The notes below the pieces were generated by a model, which searched no databases, had not been told where the DNA came from, and was given only the letters and a program-made list of their open reading frames with translations. Positions 9,168-48,659 of a stretch of 64,000 bases of DNA are shown one piece after another. Every line of letters starts with the position of its first letter. Within the stretch, counting starts at the first letter, position 1. The translations under genes and the position numbers were made by a program. The DNA lies in assembly GCF_009914755.1 (NCBI RefSeq), contig NC_060926.1. One strand, 5' to 3'. The stretch comes from the human T2T-CHM13v2.0 reference genome, Homo sapiens.

Positions 9168-9199
9168 TTCCTCAGACATATATATATATGTCTGAGGAA
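9168..9199. repeat. Perfect 32-bp palindrome centred on (AT)n
   Basis: TTCCTCAGACATATATATATATGTCTGAGGAA equals its own reverse complement (checked base by base). Confidence 0.97.
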
Positions 9200-15448: not shown

Positions 15449-16679
15449 CTGTAAAAATAATATTACATACATGCAAAAATGTTGATTGTGAACTCTATAT
15501 CTACAATGGATGATAAAACAGATCTTTTATGGGGTGAATAATGAGAGCAATAAACTATAAGAGAGGCATTTGACTCATAATTCATTGCTTATAAATGAGG
15601 TGTCCATGAAATGCATAATTATTGGCAAATACTTGTAAATTCTCAACTTATTATAAATGTAGTGCTTTTGCTAAAAGACCAATCAAAGATATATGTTACA
15701 AATCAGTTTTTAGTGGATCCCTTTTCCCTTTTACATCAAGATCTTATATTGTTGGTGTCTAAAGTCTAAATTGTTAAATTTTAAAAATGTAAGACAACAT
15801 TTCAAGTATTTGTCATTCTGAAATTACCACTGACAGAAACTAATACATAGCAGCTGAAATCTAATTTAAATTTTATGGTAAAAATTTCATAATTCACATA
15901 ATGTCCACATATATCTATATGTTATTCTTTAGTGCTGTTTATTTTTTGAAGGCAATTATTCATTGTTATTTGAATTATTCTATTTTTCCGGCAATCACAC
16001 TGAAAAGAAATTCATGGTTTACACTGAGCATGTCAGAGACAAAAAAATTCCAAAAATATTTTTCTGATTGGCTTTCAGCAAGTCTATCAAAACAAAACAA
16101 AATGAAAAAAAAAATAGCTTCAGATGTAAAAAGCGGCTTCAGGAATGATACACAAACCGATGGAGAAATTATGGCACATTTCCATCAAACAGCAATCCTT
16201 AATAACAGTACCATTATCATCAAATTGAGTATCCAGTTTTAGCAGATTGCTCTCTGCTCATAAAAGCATGCACACAACTTTAAGTTCAGTTTTAATATGG
16301 GCTTGTTCCCAAATCCTCTTAGAAGGTTGCAAATGTTAAAGGGACTTCATTATGACCGGCAATTCATATTGCCCACTATTTAAGATTCCTAGAGTTTAAA
16401 CAAAGAGTTTTTGTTTTTTTCAGGACCATAATAAAGATATCAGAACTACATATATTTTAGTTAATAATTTAGAGGCTGGAACATGTAATATAGTCTATGA
16501 ATGATTTATCATTTTGGGTTAATGCTTGCTGTGAGTACCCTCATAGATTGAGTTAGTGGATTATATTTAACAGTCCCTTTAACCTTAAGTTAACTGGGTA
16601 AGATTATTAAACAGCTGGTACGTCTAAAAATGTATAGAAATTATTATACAAGGTATGCAAATATTACTATCTACATTTT

Positions 16680-16811
16680 ACTGTTTTAAAGTTGTTTTTA
16701 ATTTAGTTTTACGGAAAATTTATTTTTTATGTTTATTAGTGTTACAATGAAGTACTACTTGGTTATGTTCAAATTATTTTTTTATTTGAAGTTTTAATCA
16801 ATGTTTTTTAC
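16680..16811 (-). promoter_or_regulatory. AU-rich UWAA cluster downstream of SS4: probable STAR-protein (SAM68/SLM1/SLM2) splicing response element
   Basis: The sense RNA after the donor is dense in UAAA/UUAA (gauuaaaac, caaauaaaaaauaau, cuaauaaacauaaaaaauaaau, guaaaacuaaauuaaaaac, uuuaaaac). KHDRBS proteins are established regulators of neurexin SS4 via such motifs. Confidence 0.7.
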
Positions 16812-16901
16812 CTTTGTCGAGTAGCCATTCATCAACTACTCGACCAAGTCGATATGGAATTCGCTGTCTAGCAATCGCCAGGCGCTCGTTATCATTGTTT
16901 C
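16812..16901 (-). CDS. NRXN1: NRXN1 alternatively spliced site 4 (SS4/AS4) cassette exon, 90 nt, 30-aa insert
   Basis: Acceptor ctttaaag/GAAAC, donor AAAG/gtaaaa; phase 1-1 symmetric. Manual translation gives (G)[29 protein letters not shown](G), the known SS4 insert that governs cerebellin versus neuroligin/LRRTM binding. Confidence 0.97.
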
Positions 16902-18834
16902 CTTTAAAGTTTAAAGAGACATTTCATTGGTTAAAATCTGTAAGGTCAAAGGTTAAAAGTTAATACTTAAAGATTGAGCTATACAGTTGCCACATGATTT
17001 TTTGAAATTTGGAATTTTAAAAAGTTCTACCTAGAACATTTCATGTTTCAGACTTGTCATTCATTCATTTATTTTATTTTAGCAAACAAAATTATTCCTA
17101 TGTTAATTGAAAATTAGAAATCTGCATTTGAGCTAGGTTATTAAACTTATGTTATAGACAGACCCGAACAACCAATTTAAACAGCATATAATAGCTTTAC
17201 AAAAAATGACCAATGACCTCAGGGTTTTGTCTTTTTGATGTTTCTTATTAACTAGTTAAACATGTTCAGGTGAAACAGGTTTAAGTTTTCAAAATACATT
17301 CAACCTCTTATTCCAGATTAATAATTTATGATCACCAAACTTAATACCATATTTGGCACACTGAAGCATCTACAATAGGCCTAGCATACTTTATTTCCTA
17401 GTCAGAAAACAGAAATTCTTATTCACCTCATTTAAGAAAACAACAAAGTCCAAATAGTTCTTGTGTATTTCACACAAATTGATTTATCAATCACTTGGAC
17501 ATCACAAGAGAATGCATCTTGCATCATCCAGATACGTTATTACAGGAAAAGGCTTTGACAAAAGTCACTTTATTTGAGTGTCCTTGAGTTTCATTTAAAG
17601 CTTAACATGTTGAAGCAAATAACATTTGAAAAAATAATTATATGTATGTTTTTATATAGTCAAATATCTGCTTTTTATTAAGTTATTCTTTAAAAGCATG
17701 ACAGCTTAAGGAACGAATATAAGCCACAAACAGTGGCCCCTATTCATAGATCTAACCTAAGTGAGAGCCCTGCTTCTTTGCATAAAAAATTATCTGCTAG
17801 AAACACTGTTTAAATTGACCTTGAATATTGCTTGCAAATAGATGAGTGTTTTCTTGATCTGTAGAGCACTTACGAAGAATCTGAGACACCATCTCGGTGT
17901 TGAGTTGTGTATAATGCAAGAAGAGATTTTCTATTCCATTAGAGTTAACTAACATGGAAATTTAAGCCAAGACATTTTGGCATTAGCTCAGATGAGGACT
18001 CAGAGGTGAAAGAAATGTTGAATGGTAGCACTATCTGCATAAAAAGACTGGAGTGTTTTGTTAGAGAAGATAAATGAATAGATTTACATTTTATTCCTCT
18101 GATTTACAATAATTTATAAGTGCTTTCTTTTGCTACTCTTATAATACATTATACTTACCACTAATAAGCCCAGCATAATACTGATTACACACTTTTGGAG
18201 AGAGAGAAAAGAACTATCTTTTAGACCTCATCAATTTGTCATCTGAATGTCTATATGACTGAAAATATTTCACACATTAATATTTAATTTAAAATGTAAA
18301 TATCAAAGTCAAGGCAAATATAAAGTTTAATGAAAACATTACTATGTATTTCTCTGTATTCTGTGATCACTAAAACATTGTAAAATAATATTTTATAATG
18401 TGGGAATATAGTTTTGTTAAACTAATAATTTTTTTAAAAGGACACAAATGGTACAAAATTCCAACCCTGTCTTCATTTTTTAAAAGTGTACAAAATTTGT
18501 GTTCTCTGTTGTGTGTTTGCATATATGCATATTTGGAAATTTTTTTTAATGTAATATTAGTTACTTTAGGACAGTGTGATTATTGATCAATTACATGTTT
18601 TTGGCTAATAAGTGATTTTATATAATAAGCATGTTTGACATGTGTAATTTGAAAAGCAATCACAAAATATTTTCAAAAATACATACCCTTTGCTCTATAG
18701 TCTTATTTGTCACTCAATACTCATACCAACTCACACTGGCATAACACTTCTGACAACTTTATGATTAGGTGGTTCCTCATGTTTTTCATGCTAGAGTCTT
18801 CCAATCATCAGGCATGACCCACATTCTCTCAGAC

Positions 18835-41742: not shown

Positions 41743-42322
41743 TGGTAGTCTCCTCTTATTCTACAGTTTCAGTTACCCACAGTCGAATGCAGTCTGAAAA
41801 TATTAAATGGAAAATTTTAGAAATAAGCAATTCATGCCATTTCAGTAAATGGCATGCAATTTAAATAATAAAGTTTTAAATTGCATGCCATTCTGAGTAG
41901 CAAGATAAAATCTCTGGCCATCCCACTCTGTCCCTCATGACACATGAATCATCCCGTTTTCTAGTGTATCCACATTATATAGTCGGTTAGTCACTTATAA
42001 GTAGCCACCTGGGTTATCAAATCAACAGATCACAAGAAGAAGGGTGAGTATAGTACAATAAGAAATTTTGGGACAAGGAGAGAGAGAGGAAGAGGCCACA
42101 TTCGCAGAACTTTTATTATGGCATATTGTTACGATTGTTCTATTTTATTACTAGTTATTGTCACTAATCTCTTATCATGTCTAATTTATACATTAAATTT
42201 TATCATAGGGATATATGTATAGGGAAACACATAGTATATATAGGTTTTGGTACTATCTGTGATTTCTGGCATCCAATGAGAGTCTTGGAATGTATTCCTC
42301 AATGGATACAGGGGGATTATTG
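41743..42322. mobile_element. MER44-like TcMar-Tigger DNA transposon relic
   Basis: Degenerate TIRs tggtagtctcctcttat / atacagggggattattg with flanking TA dinucleotides; internal gtttcagttacccacagtc. Confidence 0.75.
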
Positions 42323-45293: not shown

Positions 45294-46628
45294 TGTGTCC
45301 AGAATTGGTGGGTTCTTGGTCTCACTGACTTCAAGAATGAAGCCTCGGACCCTAGCGCTGAGTGTTATAGTTCTTAAAGGCAGTGTGGACCCAAAGAGTG
45401 AGCAGCAGCAAGATTTATTGCAAACAGCAAAAGAACAAGGCTTCCACAACACGCAAGACGACCCCAGCAGGTGGCCAGGGCTGGCTCGGGCAGCCTGCTT
45501 TTATTCTCTTATCTGGCCCCACCCACATCCTGCTGATCGGTCCATTTTACAGAGAGCCGATTGGTCTGTTTTTCAGAGAGCTGACTGGTCCGTTTTGAGA
45601 GGGTGCTGATTGGTACGTTTACAATCCCTGAGCTAGACACAAACGTTCTCCACCTCCCCACTAGATAAGCTAGATACAGAGTGCTGATTGGTGTATTTAC
45701 AAACCCTGAGCTAGATACAGAGTGCTGATTGGTGTATTCACAATCCCTTAGGTAGACATAAAGGTTCTCCAAGTCCGCACCAGATCAGCTAGACACAGAG
45801 CGCAGATTGGTGCATTTACAAACCTTGAGCTAGATAGAGTGCCGATTGGTGTATTCACAATCCCTTAGCTAGACATAAAGATTCTCCAAGTCCCCACCAG
45901 ATTAGTTAGATACAGAGTGCAGATTGGTGCATCCACAAACCCTGAGCTAGACACAAGGTGCTGATTGCTGTGTTTACAATCCCTTGGCTAGACATAAAGG
46001 TTCTCCAAGTCCCCACCAAACTCAGGAGCCCAGCTGGCTTCACCCAGCGTATCCCACACGGGGCGGCAGATGGAGCTGCCTGCCAGTCCGGCGCCATGCC
46101 CTTGCGCGGTGGATGAGACTGGGTGCCGCGGAGCAGGGGGCCGCACAGGAGCCCGTGGCGGGGGGACACTGGGGAGGGGAGGCTCAGGCATGGCGGACTG
46201 CAGGTTCCGAGCCCTGCCCCGCAGGGAGGCAGCTAAAGCCCAGTGAGAAATCGAGTGCAGTGCCGGTGGGCCGGCACTGATGGGGGACCCTGCGCACTCT
46301 CTGCATCTGCTGGCCCTGGTGCTAAGCCCATCACTGCCGGGGCCCACAGGGCCGGCCGGCCGCTGCAAGTGCAGGGCCCACCAAGCCCACGCTCACCAGG
46401 AACTCTAGGTGGCCTGCAAGCGCCGCACGCAGCCCCGGTTCCCGCCCGTGCCTCTCCCTCCACACCCCCCGCAGGCTGAGGGAACCGGCTCTGGCCTTGG
46501 CCATCCCAGGAAGGGGCTCCCACAGTGCAGTGGCAGGCTGAAGGGCTCCTCAAGCGTGGCTGAATGGGCGCCGAGGCCGAGGAGGCACCGAGAGCGAGGG
46601 AGGGCTGCTAGCACGCTGTCACCTTTTA
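45294..46628 (-). mobile_element. LTR12 (ERV9) solo LTR, 1335 bp, in the same orientation as NRXN1
   Basis: The minus strand begins taaaaggtgacagcgtgct and ends aacccaccaattctggacaca; 4-bp TSD gttg (45290-45293, 46629-46632). GC/CpG-rich 5' part; tandem CCAAT-containing repeats at about 45530-46020. Confidence 0.95.
45495..45930 (-). promoter_or_regulatory. LTR12 U3 promoter/enhancer motifs: seven CCAAT boxes, a GATA site and a TATA-like AATAAAAG
   Basis: Seven intact attgg on the + strand between 45560 and 45930; the minus strand reads ggggccAGATAAgagAATAAAAgcaggctgcccgagcc. Activity itself is not shown by the sequence. Confidence 0.7.
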
Positions 46629-48659
46629 GTTGCCTTACAGTAACTGTAAAAATTCTGATATTTAAAAAATCCAAGTCATTGATAAAGTAAGAACAAGTGA
46701 GAAGTCTGATAATATATCATTTCTTTCCATCTCCTTGGACACAATTTCTCAGAAGCTAAGCTTAGAATTTTAGGAAGACACATTCAATATACTACTTAAT
46801 AAAAAAGTTCATTATGTTTCATCATTTGGAATAACCTCAAATTCCCAGCAAAATTGAACACTGTGAAAAAAGATAATTAAACAGGAAAAGTCAGAGTTTT
46901 AGACACTTGATTAATTTACTCAGCTACTGTATTTGTGGCTTCAGATTTCTCAGAGTAAGATTTATTACAGAAAGTTAGTATTAGTAAACATTTAATGATT
47001 TCCAATGGAAACCAAACATTTATATATTGAAATAAATATTCATCTATGCATGTAAGTATATTTTGGCTAAAAACCACCAGAAAAAAAATGCTTTGACCTA
47101 GAAGTTTAAGGAGGGATGTTGATTTATTCAACAACTATTTATTAAGCACCTTCTGTGTGTCACACCCTGATTATTACGTCTTTTGTTAGACTCTACTCAA
47201 AATTGGTTATTTAAACAATAATTCAGATATTCCATATGGTTTATCAGTTTCCACAAGACTTATATTTTCACTATTTTACTTTTAGAGGAAGGAAAAAAAT
47301 TAGTCAAACATTTCCCATATCTATACATTTAATGAGAACATGGGCAAGTCTTCTTTTAACAAACTTTTTCTCCCAAATGATTCTTAAGTATTCTAATGTT
47401 CTAATGGTCCATAATAATTTACTTAATTTGCTAATAAAGTTTCTCTAGTAAAGTTAGAAAATAATTAGTGCTTACTAACGAGTATTATTGATTCAAAACT
47501 TTAGTGAAAACAAAATATGGTTATTATAAGATAAATTATAATTTATCATATAAATTATAAATAACTATGGTTATTATAAGAAAATTTTTTTTATGTGTTA
47601 CTATGTTTAAATACCCATAAGATAGTCTTGTGTGTATATGTGTTTGTGTGGGTCAGCAGAAATAGCAGACTGTGACATCGACTGATACAGTTAGGATCAA
47701 TCATGTAAGTAATAACATTTAGTTATGAAGAATAGGCTATGCTATGTTTAAAGATGCATCTAATGATCTTTGTATATTTTACTTTATGTTTCCCAGACTT
47801 TATAAAGGAAGGTGCATAGCTTGTAGACAGCAGTCCCCAAGTGTAGTTTTTACTCTGCCACTAACGAGCATTGTGATCTTGAGCAAACCAGTTGGTCTCT
47901 TCAAGGTTCCATTTTGTTGTTTGATAAATGAAGGACGTGGAATAGAAGAACGTTGAAGTTCCTTCCCTCCTTCAAATGTAATGATCATGTAAGGTAGATT
48001 GCTTTAATTACATGATACTTTGAAAAATTAAATTAAACAAATATTAAAAAATCATTAAATTAACCAACACTTCAGTACCAACCCTGCAATCTCTAAATAA
48101 TAGAGTGACTTAAATAAATAATAAATTACTGATGACTTGAATTAAAAATAAACTAATCTTAGATTAAGCTACACTAAAGGTTTGGAATTTAGGGTAATAA
48201 TATGACTTCCTGAGCCCTGAAATATTTTACCAGATTTCATGGATGAAAACAGAGTTAAGGTTTAGATCTAATACTCATAAGCTCTTCCAGACAAATTGCA
48301 TGATCACGAGAAAAGATTTACACCATCTCTATGGAGTCTTAGAGCATTTCTCTCTTTCTCTCAGATCCTCTTATCCCTAAAGGATCTCTTTATCTTACCA
48401 CTCCAGACCACCATTTTCTATTTTCCTTAAACTTAACAGTAATCAAACTCGGCATTTTGAAAGTTAATACATTTTATCTGACATGTTCAGGTTTTCTGGA
48501 TCCTCCTTATCTCCCAATCAGACTAATCTGTTGGCAAACATGAATAATAATGTCTTTGACTTCTTTGTTCCTTCCTACAACTGGTTTCCATTTCATTGGT
48601 ACCTAATGCTGTCTGGTGACACACAGCAGCATTAGAACATTGAATAATTGCTGGTTAAA

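What the first reader, a model, noticed from the sequence alone, without database searches (positions are those of the whole stretch)
16812..16848. RNA stem-loop inside the NRXN1 SS4 exon that pairs the exonic side of its 5' splice site
Seen: the sense RNA reads CUUG-GUCGAGUAG-UUGAUGAAUGG-CUACUCGAC-AAAG/gu. GUCGAGUAG (16844-16836) pairs perfectly with CUACUCGAC (16824-16816). Three G-U wobbles extend the stem inward to leave a 5-nt loop. Outward, after one G.A mismatch, U-A, U-A and C-G pair the last three exon bases (-3 to -1). The donor is weak (AAG/guaaaa, no +5 G), so it depends on exactly these bases for U1 pairing. The arms use uncommon codons (CGA, GUA, CUA), which hints at constraint beyond the protein. 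Known precedent: splice-site-sequestering hairpins at MAPT exon 10 and SMN2 exon 7. Inference: a structural layer of control on SS4, next to the STAR-protein element. I am not aware of a description of it but cannot search.
Basis: partly seen in the sequence, partly recalled or inferred. Interest (0 to 1): 0.8.

Follow-up and report, generated by a model that had tools for sequence, protein, structure and literature searches.

The report
Conserved hairpin inside neurexin SS4 exon
The last third of the NRXN1 SS4 exon folds into a stable small RNA hairpin that NRXN2 keeps and NRXN3 echoes, but folding models show no sign that it hides the neighbouring weak splice site, so its role is still open.

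Summary
The stem is real. GUCGAGUAG (16844-16836) pairs perfectly with CUACUCGAC (16824-16816) on the NRXN1 sense strand. Two G-U pairs extend it to 11 bp (hairpin alone -14.4 kcal/mol). It is predicted at P 0.84-1.0 in 210-nt context and kept in 290-nt context.

It is rarer than chance: z -3.59, top 0.6% of GC-matched windows, and 0.07-0.2% of synonymous recodings.

Human NRXN2 keeps it, with one change (U-A to U-G). NRXN3 has different arms, yet forms a 7-bp hairpin around the same loop, shifted by 3 nt (2.6-5.4% of recodings).

There is no true covariation. The whole exon is under synonymous constraint, so the arms do not stand out within it.

The donor is weak in all three paralogs (U1 duplex about -6.7 against -11 kcal/mol for the flanking exons).

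Sequestration is not supported in silico. The stable stem ends at -5. The CUU/AAG extension has P 0.19-0.30 in NRXN1 and about 0.03 in NRXN2. Opening the donor costs 2.48 kcal/mol, below the window average of 3.69 and below both constitutive donors.

Nine literature searches found no description. No orthologue DNA was reachable. Verdict: a plausible but unproven structural element, a new member of a known kind.

The parts
16812..16901 (-). NRXN1 SS4 (AS4) alternative exon, 90 nt, phase 1. It encodes (G)[29 protein letters not shown].
   Evidence: matches the hub's annotation row. Codon identity to NRXN2 at identical degenerate residues is 19 of 27, against 41 of 110 in the flanking exons (Fisher p 0.0024).
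16834..16844 (-). 5' arm of the hairpin (exon positions 58-68). GUCGAGUAG is the Watson-Crick core (16844-16836), followed by UU that pair as U-G (16835-16834). It covers the codons GG[U] CGA GUA GUU.
   Evidence: pair probabilities 0.84-1.00. The 9-nt core is identical in NRXN2.
16827..16833 (-). Apical loop GAUGAAU (exon positions 69-75), from the Asp-Glu-Trp codons. It is purine-rich in all three paralogs: AGAUGAGUG in NRXN2 and AGGAGUGG in NRXN3.
16816..16826 (-). 3' arm (exon positions 76-86). GG (16826-16825) is followed by the CUACUCGAC core (16824-16816), which is the codons CUA CUC GAC. The last stem base is exon position -5.
   Evidence: NRXN2 has CUG for CUA, which turns U-A into U-G.
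16846..16848 (-).
   Evidence: Complementary in sequence. Predicted only at P 0.19-0.30 in NRXN1 and about 0.03 in NRXN2.
16806..16814 (-). SS4 5' splice site, -3..+6: AAG|GUAAAA. There is no +5 G and no +6 U.
   Evidence: 6 contiguous pairs to the U1 5' end, duplex -6.8 kcal/mol. NRXN2 (AAG|GUAAUU, -6.6) and NRXN3 (AAG|GUAACC, -6.5) are alike. Opening energy is 2.48 kcal/mol.
16612..16811 (-). A/U-rich start of the downstream intron with 14 UWAA motifs. This is the sequence type of the published SAM68/SLM2 response elements and is not part of the hairpin.
   Evidence: motif count. Passages of PMC5397175 and PMC4735526.

Best explanation
A local 10-11 bp hairpin occupies exon positions 58-86 of the NRXN1 and NRXN2 SS4 exons. 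NRXN3 has a 7-bp hairpin in a 3-nt-shifted register at 63-84.

I read it as a selected cis-acting RNA structure that belongs to the exon's own splicing code. It does not act as a mask of the 5' splice site. It would fold as soon as its 3' arm is transcribed, locking about 22 of the last 33 exon bases into a duplex. That leaves three things single-stranded: a purine-rich apical loop (GAU GAA, GAU GAG or GAG GAG, plus UGG), an A-rich 4-6 nt tail, and the weak donor.

My favoured sub-mechanism (about 0.2 on its own) is display of the purine-rich loop as an exonic enhancer about 18 nt upstream of a donor that needs help. The intronic STAR-protein sites would then repress the exon independently.

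Shown here: the stem, its stability and rarity, its retention or echo in the paralogs, the weak donors, and the unmasked donor in silico. Inferred: that the structure forms in the nucleus, that it is selected as a structure, and how it acts.
For: 1. Stability and rarity.
- z is -3.59, and 1 of 200 shuffles folds as well.
- The site is in the top 0.61% of 1,956 GC-matched windows.
- MFE p is 0.0105-0.0375 against 2,000 synonymous recodings per codon model.
- A stem at least as long over the same loop occurs in 0.0007-0.002 (NRXN1) and 0.002-0.004 (NRXN2) of 1,500 recodings per codon model.

2. Robustness. Pair probabilities are 0.84-1.00 in NRXN1 and 0.87-0.99 in NRXN2 in 210 nt. The stem is kept in 290 nt.

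3. NRXN2.
- Five of 6 arm codons are identical, and the sixth (CTA to CTG) keeps its pair as U-G.
- The background for identical codons is 41 of 110, so 5 or more of 6 has binomial p 0.030.
- NRXN2's flanking exons have GC3 of 135/154, yet six consecutive A/T-ending codons (CTT GGT CGA GTA GTA GAT) cover the 5' arm.
- The NRXN1/NRXN2 differences cluster upstream of the stem (R14-R18) and in the loop (V23, E25).

3b. NRXN3. It shares 14 of 29 residues with NRXN1 (48%) and has different arm residues (P22, Q28, E29). It still forms CCUGUAG/CUGCAGG around the same loop, with P of 0.98 or more. This occurs in 0.026-0.054 of 1,500 recodings per codon model.

4. The donor is equally weak in all three paralogs. 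Together with exon-wide synonymous constraint (19/27 against 41/110, Fisher p 0.0024), this fits an exon that depends on exonic signals.

5. The loop is purine-rich in all three.
Against: - There is no covariation. In the NRXN1 register, NRXN3 breaks 5 of 9 core pairs. On the 3-sequence alignment, 90 of 500 shuffles reach the observed percentage of paired cells.
- Codon geometry puts one protein-locked base in every pair, so compensatory synonymous change is nearly impossible.
- Within the exon the arms are no better conserved than the rest (hypergeometric p 0.41). The 5' third is 10 of 10 identical codons between NRXN1 and NRXN2, yet the two fold differently there. Primary-sequence constraint alone could therefore explain arm conservation.
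- The NRXN3 window is no more stable than its shuffles (z +0.63; 140 of 200 fold as well). Its MFE is ordinary among recodings (0.36-0.46). Four of its 7 pairs use sequence shared with NRXN2.
- The loop's purine content is dictated by the Asp/Glu codons.
- The NRXN1-specific changes that strengthen the stem (CTG to CTA, GTA to GTT) also follow the AT drift of its isochore.
- The NRXN3 test was defined after I had seen the hairpin.
- No orthologue DNA, probing data or mutagenesis were available.
Confidence: 0.4

Rival explanations
1. The hairpin is a by-product. The SS4 exon is constrained at the protein level and at synonymous sites by linear splicing signals (enhancers, silencers or protein-binding motifs such as the shared GUAG). 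The codons for G-R-V and L-L-D simply happen to be complementary. The hairpin may form but is not itself selected.
For: - Constraint is exon-wide and not specific to the arms (19/27 identical codons; arms against rest p 0.41).
- The most conserved block (exon positions 9-38, 10 of 10 identical codons) has no shared predicted structure.
- There is no covariation.
- The NRXN3 hairpin is weak (-8.9 kcal/mol; z +0.63).
- 49 loci in this one window fold at least as well. The first stage scanned very many windows, so a 1-4% event per exon is expected somewhere.
Against: - Location-specific rarity is 0.0007-0.004 in NRXN1 and NRXN2.
- NRXN3 replaced residues on both arms yet stays complementary around the same loop (0.026-0.054).
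- NRXN2 keeps GGT, the only Gly codon that pairs, although GGT is 1 of 16 Gly codons in its flanking exons.
Confidence: 0.4
2. The hairpin extends to the last exon bases, or to the GU, and competes with U1 snRNP for a weak donor. It would lower SS4 inclusion in the manner of SMN2 TSL2 or MAPT exon 10.
For: - CUU/AAG complementarity across one G.A mismatch is present in NRXN1 and NRXN2.
- The 61-nt MFE pairs ACUU with AGGU, that is -2..+2.
- Bases -2 and -1 are mostly paired in the NRXN1 210-nt ensemble (unpaired probability 0.06 and 0.03).
- The donor is weak. The stem ends only 4 nt from the junction, so steric hindrance is conceivable.
Against: - The extension has P 0.19-0.30 in NRXN1 and about 0.03 in NRXN2, and is absent in NRXN3. 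The donor's partners differ in each paralog: upstream intron, downstream intron, upstream intron.
- Donor accessibility equals that of synonymous recodings lacking the stem: 0.63 against 0.62-0.64 in NRXN1, and 0.57 against 0.56-0.58 in NRXN2.
- Opening energies of 2.48, 2.90 and 1.63 kcal/mol are below the window's mean of 3.69 and below both constitutive donors.
- STAR proteins have to be added to induce skipping in minigenes, and their element works from 112-241 nt away (passages of PMC5397175). This fits a default-included exon, though the baseline figures are in figures I could not see.
Confidence: 0.12
3. The hairpin acts on the mature SS4+ mRNA rather than on splicing. Examples would be slowing ribosomes, binding a factor, or interfering with exon-junction-complex loading. 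The canonical loading site about 24 nt upstream of the junction falls at exon position 67, inside the stem (that position is recalled knowledge).
For: The hairpin is wholly exonic, so it is retained in the mRNA. It is retained or echoed in all three paralogs.
Against: Nothing tested here points to this. A stem of -14 kcal/mol is easily unwound by ribosomes and spliceosomal helicases (general knowledge).
Confidence: 0.05

Closest known systems
SMN2 exon 7 terminal stem-loop 2 (TSL2); Singh et al. 2007, PMC1802598 (abstract and outline read)
   Same: Both are short hairpins at the 3' end of an alternative exon with a weak 5' splice site. The same tests apply: disruption and compensatory mutation, U1 recruitment and enzymatic probing.
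   Different: According to that abstract, TSL2 is formed by the sequence at the exon 7/intron 7 junction and reduces U1 snRNP recruitment. Here the stable stem ends at -5, and the modelled donor is not less accessible than background. No experiment exists for SS4.
MAPT exon 10 5' splice-site stem-loop
   Same: Both involve a neuronal alternative exon, a hairpin next to the donor, and a proposed balance between structure and U1 binding.
   Different: As I recall it, the MAPT stem spans the exon-intron junction and includes intronic donor positions. The SS4 core stem is wholly exonic and excludes -4..+6.
Fibronectin EDA exon enhancer-display hairpin
   Same: Both are exonic stem-loops whose apical loop carries a purine-rich element. 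The structure is proposed to present the element rather than to hide a splice site. This matches the anatomy here, with a GAR-GAR-UGG loop in all three paralogs.
   Different: No evidence exists that the SS4 loop is an enhancer or binds an SR protein. The loop's composition is fixed by the Asp/Glu codons.
SAM68/SLM2 (STAR protein) UWAA response elements of the neurexin AS4 exons; PMC5397175, PMC4735526, PMC3636136 (passages read)
   Same: They regulate the same exon. UWAA clusters begin right after the donor, with 14, 10 and 16 motifs in the first 200 intron nt of NRXN1, NRXN2 and NRXN3.
   Different: Those elements are intronic, single-stranded and A/U-rich. The NRXN1 and NRXN2 exons contain no UWAA motif. 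PMC4735526 states that natural Sam68 targets such as neurexin1 are not predicted to be structured around the binding sites. The hairpin is a separate feature. The word searches I ran in those three papers (secondary structure in all three; stem and exonic in PMC5397175 and PMC3636136) found no mention of it.

Membership tests
5' splice-site-sequestering hairpins (SMN2 TSL2 / MAPT exon 10 type) | The stem contains bases of the donor that pair with U1 (-3..+6) | tested here: not met
   The core stem covers exon positions 58-86 and ends at -5. The CUU/AAG extension has P 0.19-0.30 in NRXN1 and about 0.03 in NRXN2, and is absent in NRXN3.
5' splice-site-sequestering hairpins (SMN2 TSL2 / MAPT exon 10 type) | The structure makes the donor less accessible than it would otherwise be | tested here: not met
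   The unpaired probability of -3..+6 is 0.63 against 0.62-0.64 in 2,000 synonymous recodings per codon model. Opening energy is 2.48 kcal/mol against a mean of 3.69 at 250 random positions, 4.25 at 45 decoy sites, and 3.85 and 5.48 at the constitutive donors. This is a thermodynamic model only.
5' splice-site-sequestering hairpins (SMN2 TSL2 / MAPT exon 10 type) | Weak 5' splice site | tested here: met
   AAG|GUAAAA forms 6 contiguous pairs with U1, -6.8 kcal/mol, against -11.0 and -11.1 for the flanking exons. NRXN2 gives -6.6 and NRXN3 -6.5. The U1 5'-end motif was recalled.
5' splice-site-sequestering hairpins (SMN2 TSL2 / MAPT exon 10 type) | Destabilising mutations raise inclusion, strengthening ones lower it, compensatory ones restore it, and U1 recruitment changes | not testable with these tools
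   This needs minigenes and U1 binding assays.
Enhancer-display exonic hairpins (fibronectin EDA type) | A splicing enhancer sits in the apical loop of a stable exonic stem | tested here: inconclusive
   The loop is purine-rich in all three paralogs (GAUGAAU, AGAUGAGUG, AGGAGUGG). No enhancer assay or motif library was available, and the purines follow from the Asp/Glu codons.
Enhancer-display exonic hairpins (fibronectin EDA type) | The structure is conserved among homologues | tested here: inconclusive
   NRXN2 keeps 9 of 9 core pairs, one of them as U-G. NRXN3 breaks 5 of 9 in that register but forms a hairpin shifted by 3 nt over the same loop. The NRXN3 hairpin occurs in 0.026-0.054 of 1,500 recodings per codon model. 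No orthologues were reachable.
Evolutionarily supported RNA structure (covariation standard) | Compensatory changes on both sides of pairs beyond what shuffles give | tested here: not met
   On three sequences, 1 pair has a change on both sides, and 318 of 500 shuffles do as well. Power is very low, and codon geometry forbids most synonymous compensation.
Rfam families | A match to any of the 4,227 covariance models | tested here: not met
   There were 0 matches at E up to 1 in window 16500-17200, both strands.
STAR-protein (SAM68/SLM2) response element | A cluster of U(A/U)AA motifs in single-stranded RNA | tested here: not met
   The NRXN1 and NRXN2 exons have 0 UWAA motifs. The motifs lie in the intron, 14 in the first 200 nt. 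The hairpin is not part of that element.

The most novel reading that the evidence does not exclude
All three human neurexin SS4 exons carry a positionally conserved exonic hairpin a few bases upstream of an equally weak donor. It would be a third, structural layer of SS4 control, beside the splice sites and the STAR-protein sites. It would set the baseline inclusion of the exon and hence how strongly SLM2 or SAM68 can switch it. Like SMN2 TSL2, it would give a defined RNA target for oligonucleotides or small molecules that shift the SS4+/SS4- ratio.
Probability: 0.2. Interest if true: 0.7.

Novelty: new member of a known kind. Interest (0 to 1): 0.42.

Why it matters
SS4 is among the most studied alternative exons in neuroscience. 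Its inclusion decides which postsynaptic partners the neurexins bind. In the passages I read, its regulation is explained by intronic SAM68/SLM2 sites.

An exonic structure shared by the paralogs would add a cis element that nobody appears to have tested. It could help explain how an exon with a poor donor is included by default. It would also mean that some synonymous NRXN1 variants in these codons need not be neutral.

The element is small enough for decisive minigene and probing experiments. If it proves to be a by-product, it still illustrates that exon-wide synonymous constraint can mimic structural conservation.

Tried and rejected
- Orthologue DNA could not be reached. With the neighbouring 106-aa exon it found no relative in genome contigs: 141 pattern matches, none confirmed. 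R-scape-type evidence is therefore missing.
- A DNA search of the own genome found NRXN2 but not NRXN3. A protein search found NRXN3 at 48% identity.
- RNAalifold and pair counts on the three paralogs gave no covariation. NRXN3 does not fit the NRXN1 register.
- Sequestration tests were both negative: accessibility against recodings and opening energy against background.
- I considered an 'insulator' idea, that the hairpin keeps the donor free. I dropped it because recodings without the stem leave the donor equally accessible.
- Rfam gave no match.
- The + strand forms the same 9-bp core (-14.4 kcal/mol, z -3.12), as any inverted repeat must. Nothing is annotated there, and the G-U extensions exist only on the sense strand.
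- Iijima et al. 2011 (PMC3246220) is not held, so its minigene details were not seen. The supplements of PMC5397175 (species comparisons, primers) were not opened.
- The codon-usage table used for one of the two recoding nulls was recalled. The uniform null needs no table.

Full report
**What is there.** On the NRXN1 sense (-) strand the 90-nt SS4 exon runs from 16901 to 16812 and is followed by the donor AAG|GUAAAA. GUCGAGUAG (16844-16836) pairs with CUACUCGAC (16824-16816) in nine Watson-Crick pairs. The repeat finder reports the full 13-nt arms (16812-16824 and 16836-16848) as 92% complementary and 11 nt apart (I9). ViennaRNA adds two U-G pairs, giving an 11-bp stem with a 7-nt loop, GAUGAAU. 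The isolated hairpin is -14.4 kcal/mol. On the + strand the 9-bp core forms too, as any inverted repeat must. Nothing is annotated there.

**Is it more than chance?**
- A 61-nt window folds at -18.0 kcal/mol, against -8.81 +/- 2.56 for dinucleotide shuffles (z -3.59). One of 200 shuffles folds as well.
- The stem survives in 290 nt. In 210 nt its pair probabilities are 0.84-1.00.
- The 64-kb sense strand holds 19 distinct perfect hairpins of 9 bp or more with loops of 3-15 nt. Six have arm GC of 0.4 or more.
- The site is in the top 2.24% of 12,788 sliding windows and the top 0.61% of 1,956 GC-matched ones. Forty-nine loci are at least as stable.
- Holding the protein fixed and redrawing codons, the MFE is reached by 1.05% (uniform) to 3.75% (recalled human usage) of 2,000 recodings.
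- A stem of 11 bp or more over the same loop is reached by 0.07-0.2% of 1,500 recodings per codon model.

So the core hairpin is unusual. Given how many exons a genome-wide scan reads, though, it is not beyond the look-elsewhere effect.

**Paralogs.** The own assembly gave the NRXN2 exon (89% identical DNA) and the NRXN3 exon (48% identical protein).

*NRXN2.*
- It keeps the 5' arm unchanged. Its 3' arm has one change, CUA to CUG, which turns U-A into U-G.
- The stem is 10 bp, with P 0.87-0.99 and z -2.25.
- At identical, degenerate residues, NRXN1 and NRXN2 share 19 of 27 codons in SS4. In the two flanking constitutive exons they share 41 of 110 (Fisher p 0.0024).
- NRXN2's flanking exons have GC3 of 135/154, against 15/28 in its SS4 exon. 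Six consecutive A/T-ending codons (CTT GGT CGA GTA GTA GAT) cover the 5' arm.
- The eight changed codons are R14, I15, P16, Y17 and R18 (upstream of the stem), V23 and E25 (in the loop), and L27 (pair-preserving).
- That pattern fits a hairpin. However, the 5' third of the exon is 10 of 10 identical codons, although NRXN1 and NRXN2 are predicted to fold differently there.
- Within the exon the arms are not significantly better kept than the rest (hypergeometric p 0.41).

*NRXN3.*
- It has other residues in the arms (P22, Q28, E29). In the NRXN1 register it breaks 5 of 9 core pairs.
- It nevertheless forms CCUGUAG/CUGCAGG (exon positions 63-69 with 78-84, P of 0.98 or more) around the same Glu-Glu-Trp loop, shifted by 3 nt.
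- This happens in 2.6-5.4% of 1,500 recodings per codon model.
- The hairpin is weak (-8.9 kcal/mol). Its window is no more stable than shuffles (z +0.63).
- Four of its seven pairs use GUAG/CUGC sequence that it shares with NRXN2.

There is therefore no covariation in the strict sense (1 pair changed on both sides, and 318 of 500 shuffles do as well). Because each pair joins a wobble base to a protein-locked base, synonymous compensation is almost impossible in any case.

**The splice site.**
It forms six contiguous pairs with the (recalled) U1 5' end, -6.8 kcal/mol, against -11.0 and -11.1 for the flanking exons.
- NRXN2 (-6.6) and NRXN3 (-6.5) are the same.
- The stable stem stops at -5.
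- The proposed C-G, U-A, U-A pairs onto -3..-1 have P 0.19-0.30 in NRXN1 and about 0.03 in NRXN2, and do not exist in NRXN3.
- The donor's preferred partners differ in each paralog.
- The mean unpaired probability of -3..+6 is 0.63, against 0.62-0.64 in recodings that mostly lack the stem. NRXN2 gives 0.57 against 0.56-0.58.
- Opening -3..+6 costs 2.48 kcal/mol (2.90 in NRXN2, 1.63 in NRXN3).
- For comparison, 250 random positions in the window average 3.69 +/- 2.37 (66% at least as high), and 45 decoy G|GUAA sites average 4.25 (87% at least as high). The two constitutive donors cost 3.85 and 5.48.

In the model, then, the SS4 donor is if anything more open than average. The sequestration reading fails its two computable tests.

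**Surroundings.** The downstream intron starts with 14 UWAA motifs in 200 nt (10 in NRXN2, 16 in NRXN3). The NRXN1 and NRXN2 exons have none. Passages of PMC5397175 say the NRXN2 SLM2 element also works when moved 112-241 nt downstream or placed upstream. Passages of PMC4735526 say Sam68 target sites, neurexin1 included, are not predicted to be structured. The hairpin is thus a separate feature from the STAR element. Rfam has no match.

**How it most likely works.** I put about 0.4-0.45 on the hairpin being selected as a structure, and about 0.4 on it being a by-product of an exon constrained for protein and linear splicing signals.

If it is selected, the anatomy favours a role in exon definition over donor masking. 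The relevant features are a duplex over the arms, a purine-rich apical loop in all three paralogs, a free A-rich tail and a free weak donor. The closest analogue is an enhancer presented in a loop, as recalled for the fibronectin EDA exon. This also fits an exon that needs added STAR protein to be skipped in minigenes (passages). The baseline inclusion values are in figures I could not read.

An mRNA-level role is a minor option (0.05).

**Literature.** Nine searches were run.
- neurexin + SS4 + stem-loop: 0 papers.
- neurexin + AS4 + secondary structure + splice site: 4 papers.
- neurexin + splice site 4 + RNA secondary structure: 1 paper.
- Neurexin2 + AS4 + SLM2 + minigene: 6 papers.
- Nrxn1 + SS4 + RNA structure: 1 paper.
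- neurexin + hairpin + exon 20 + splicing: 9 papers hold the terms, 6 listed.
- synonymous constraint + neurexin: 0 papers.
- The TSL2 search.
- A 15-base string of the exon: 1 paper, a qPCR primer table.

I read passages only of PMC4735526, PMC10913846, PMC5397175, PMC12652946, PMC9978375, PMC3636136 and PMC13071346, and the abstract and outline of PMC1802598. None describes this hairpin. The other papers listed were seen only as listings. Subscription papers, Iijima 2011 included, and supplements were not seen.

**Verdict.** Its mechanism is not supported in silico. If real, this is a new member of a known kind. Interest is moderate until orthologue alignments, probing or minigenes decide.

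Noticed in passing
window 16864-16893 (- strand; exon positions 9-38): The 5' third of the SS4 exon (GAT AAC GAG CGC CTG GCG ATT GCT AGA CAG) is identical base for base in NRXN1 and NRXN2, 10 of 10 degenerate codons. NRXN2's flanking exons have GC3 of 0.88. The two paralogs are predicted to fold differently there. A linear signal such as an exonic enhancer seems likelier than structure.
   Followed up: partly
window 16902-16918 (- strand); L005 1482-1498; L002 1591-1607 (-): The last ~15 intron bases before the SS4 acceptor are nearly the same in NRXN1 and NRXN3 (TTTAAACTTTAAAG|G) and similar in NRXN2 (TCTAAACTTTTCCAAG|G). The polypyrimidine tract is purine-interrupted, with pyrimidine fraction 0.67-0.78. 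This may be a conserved branch-point or UWAA-type element very close to the 3' splice site.
   Followed up: no
window 16772-16801 and 17610-17639: There is a 30-nt, 70% complementary A/T-rich inverted repeat. One arm lies in the UWAA-rich intron just downstream of the donor, and the other about 710 nt upstream of the exon, so pairing would loop out the SS4 exon (I1). It is low-complexity and may be chance.
   Followed up: no
L002 1455-1500 (- strand), NRXN2 intron just after the SS4 donor: A run of (UUAA) repeats, AAUUAAUUAAUUAAUUAAUUAA, starts about 12 nt after the donor. It presumably corresponds to the published SLM2 response cluster of Neurexin2 (passages of PMC5397175).
   Followed up: partly
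window 41848-41892 and 9168-9199 (- strand): Two much longer perfect intronic hairpins were found: 18 bp with a 9-nt loop, and 14 bp with a 4-nt loop. The first lies inside a stretch that the hub lists as masked repeat (41761-41904).
   Followed up: no
window 46030-46600: The most stable 61-nt folds of the window (down to -37.3 kcal/mol, GC 0.67-0.77) cluster in the GC-rich stretch annotated as RefSeq enhancers at 46000-47026.
   Followed up: no
SS4 exons of the three paralogs (A1): Where NRXN3 is informative, all five NRXN1/NRXN2 codon differences (I15, P16, V23, E25, L27) have NRXN2 equal to NRXN3. The changes are therefore NRXN1-specific, and all go towards A or T, in line with its AT-rich surroundings (GC 0.29 within 500 nt either side).
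   Followed up: partly
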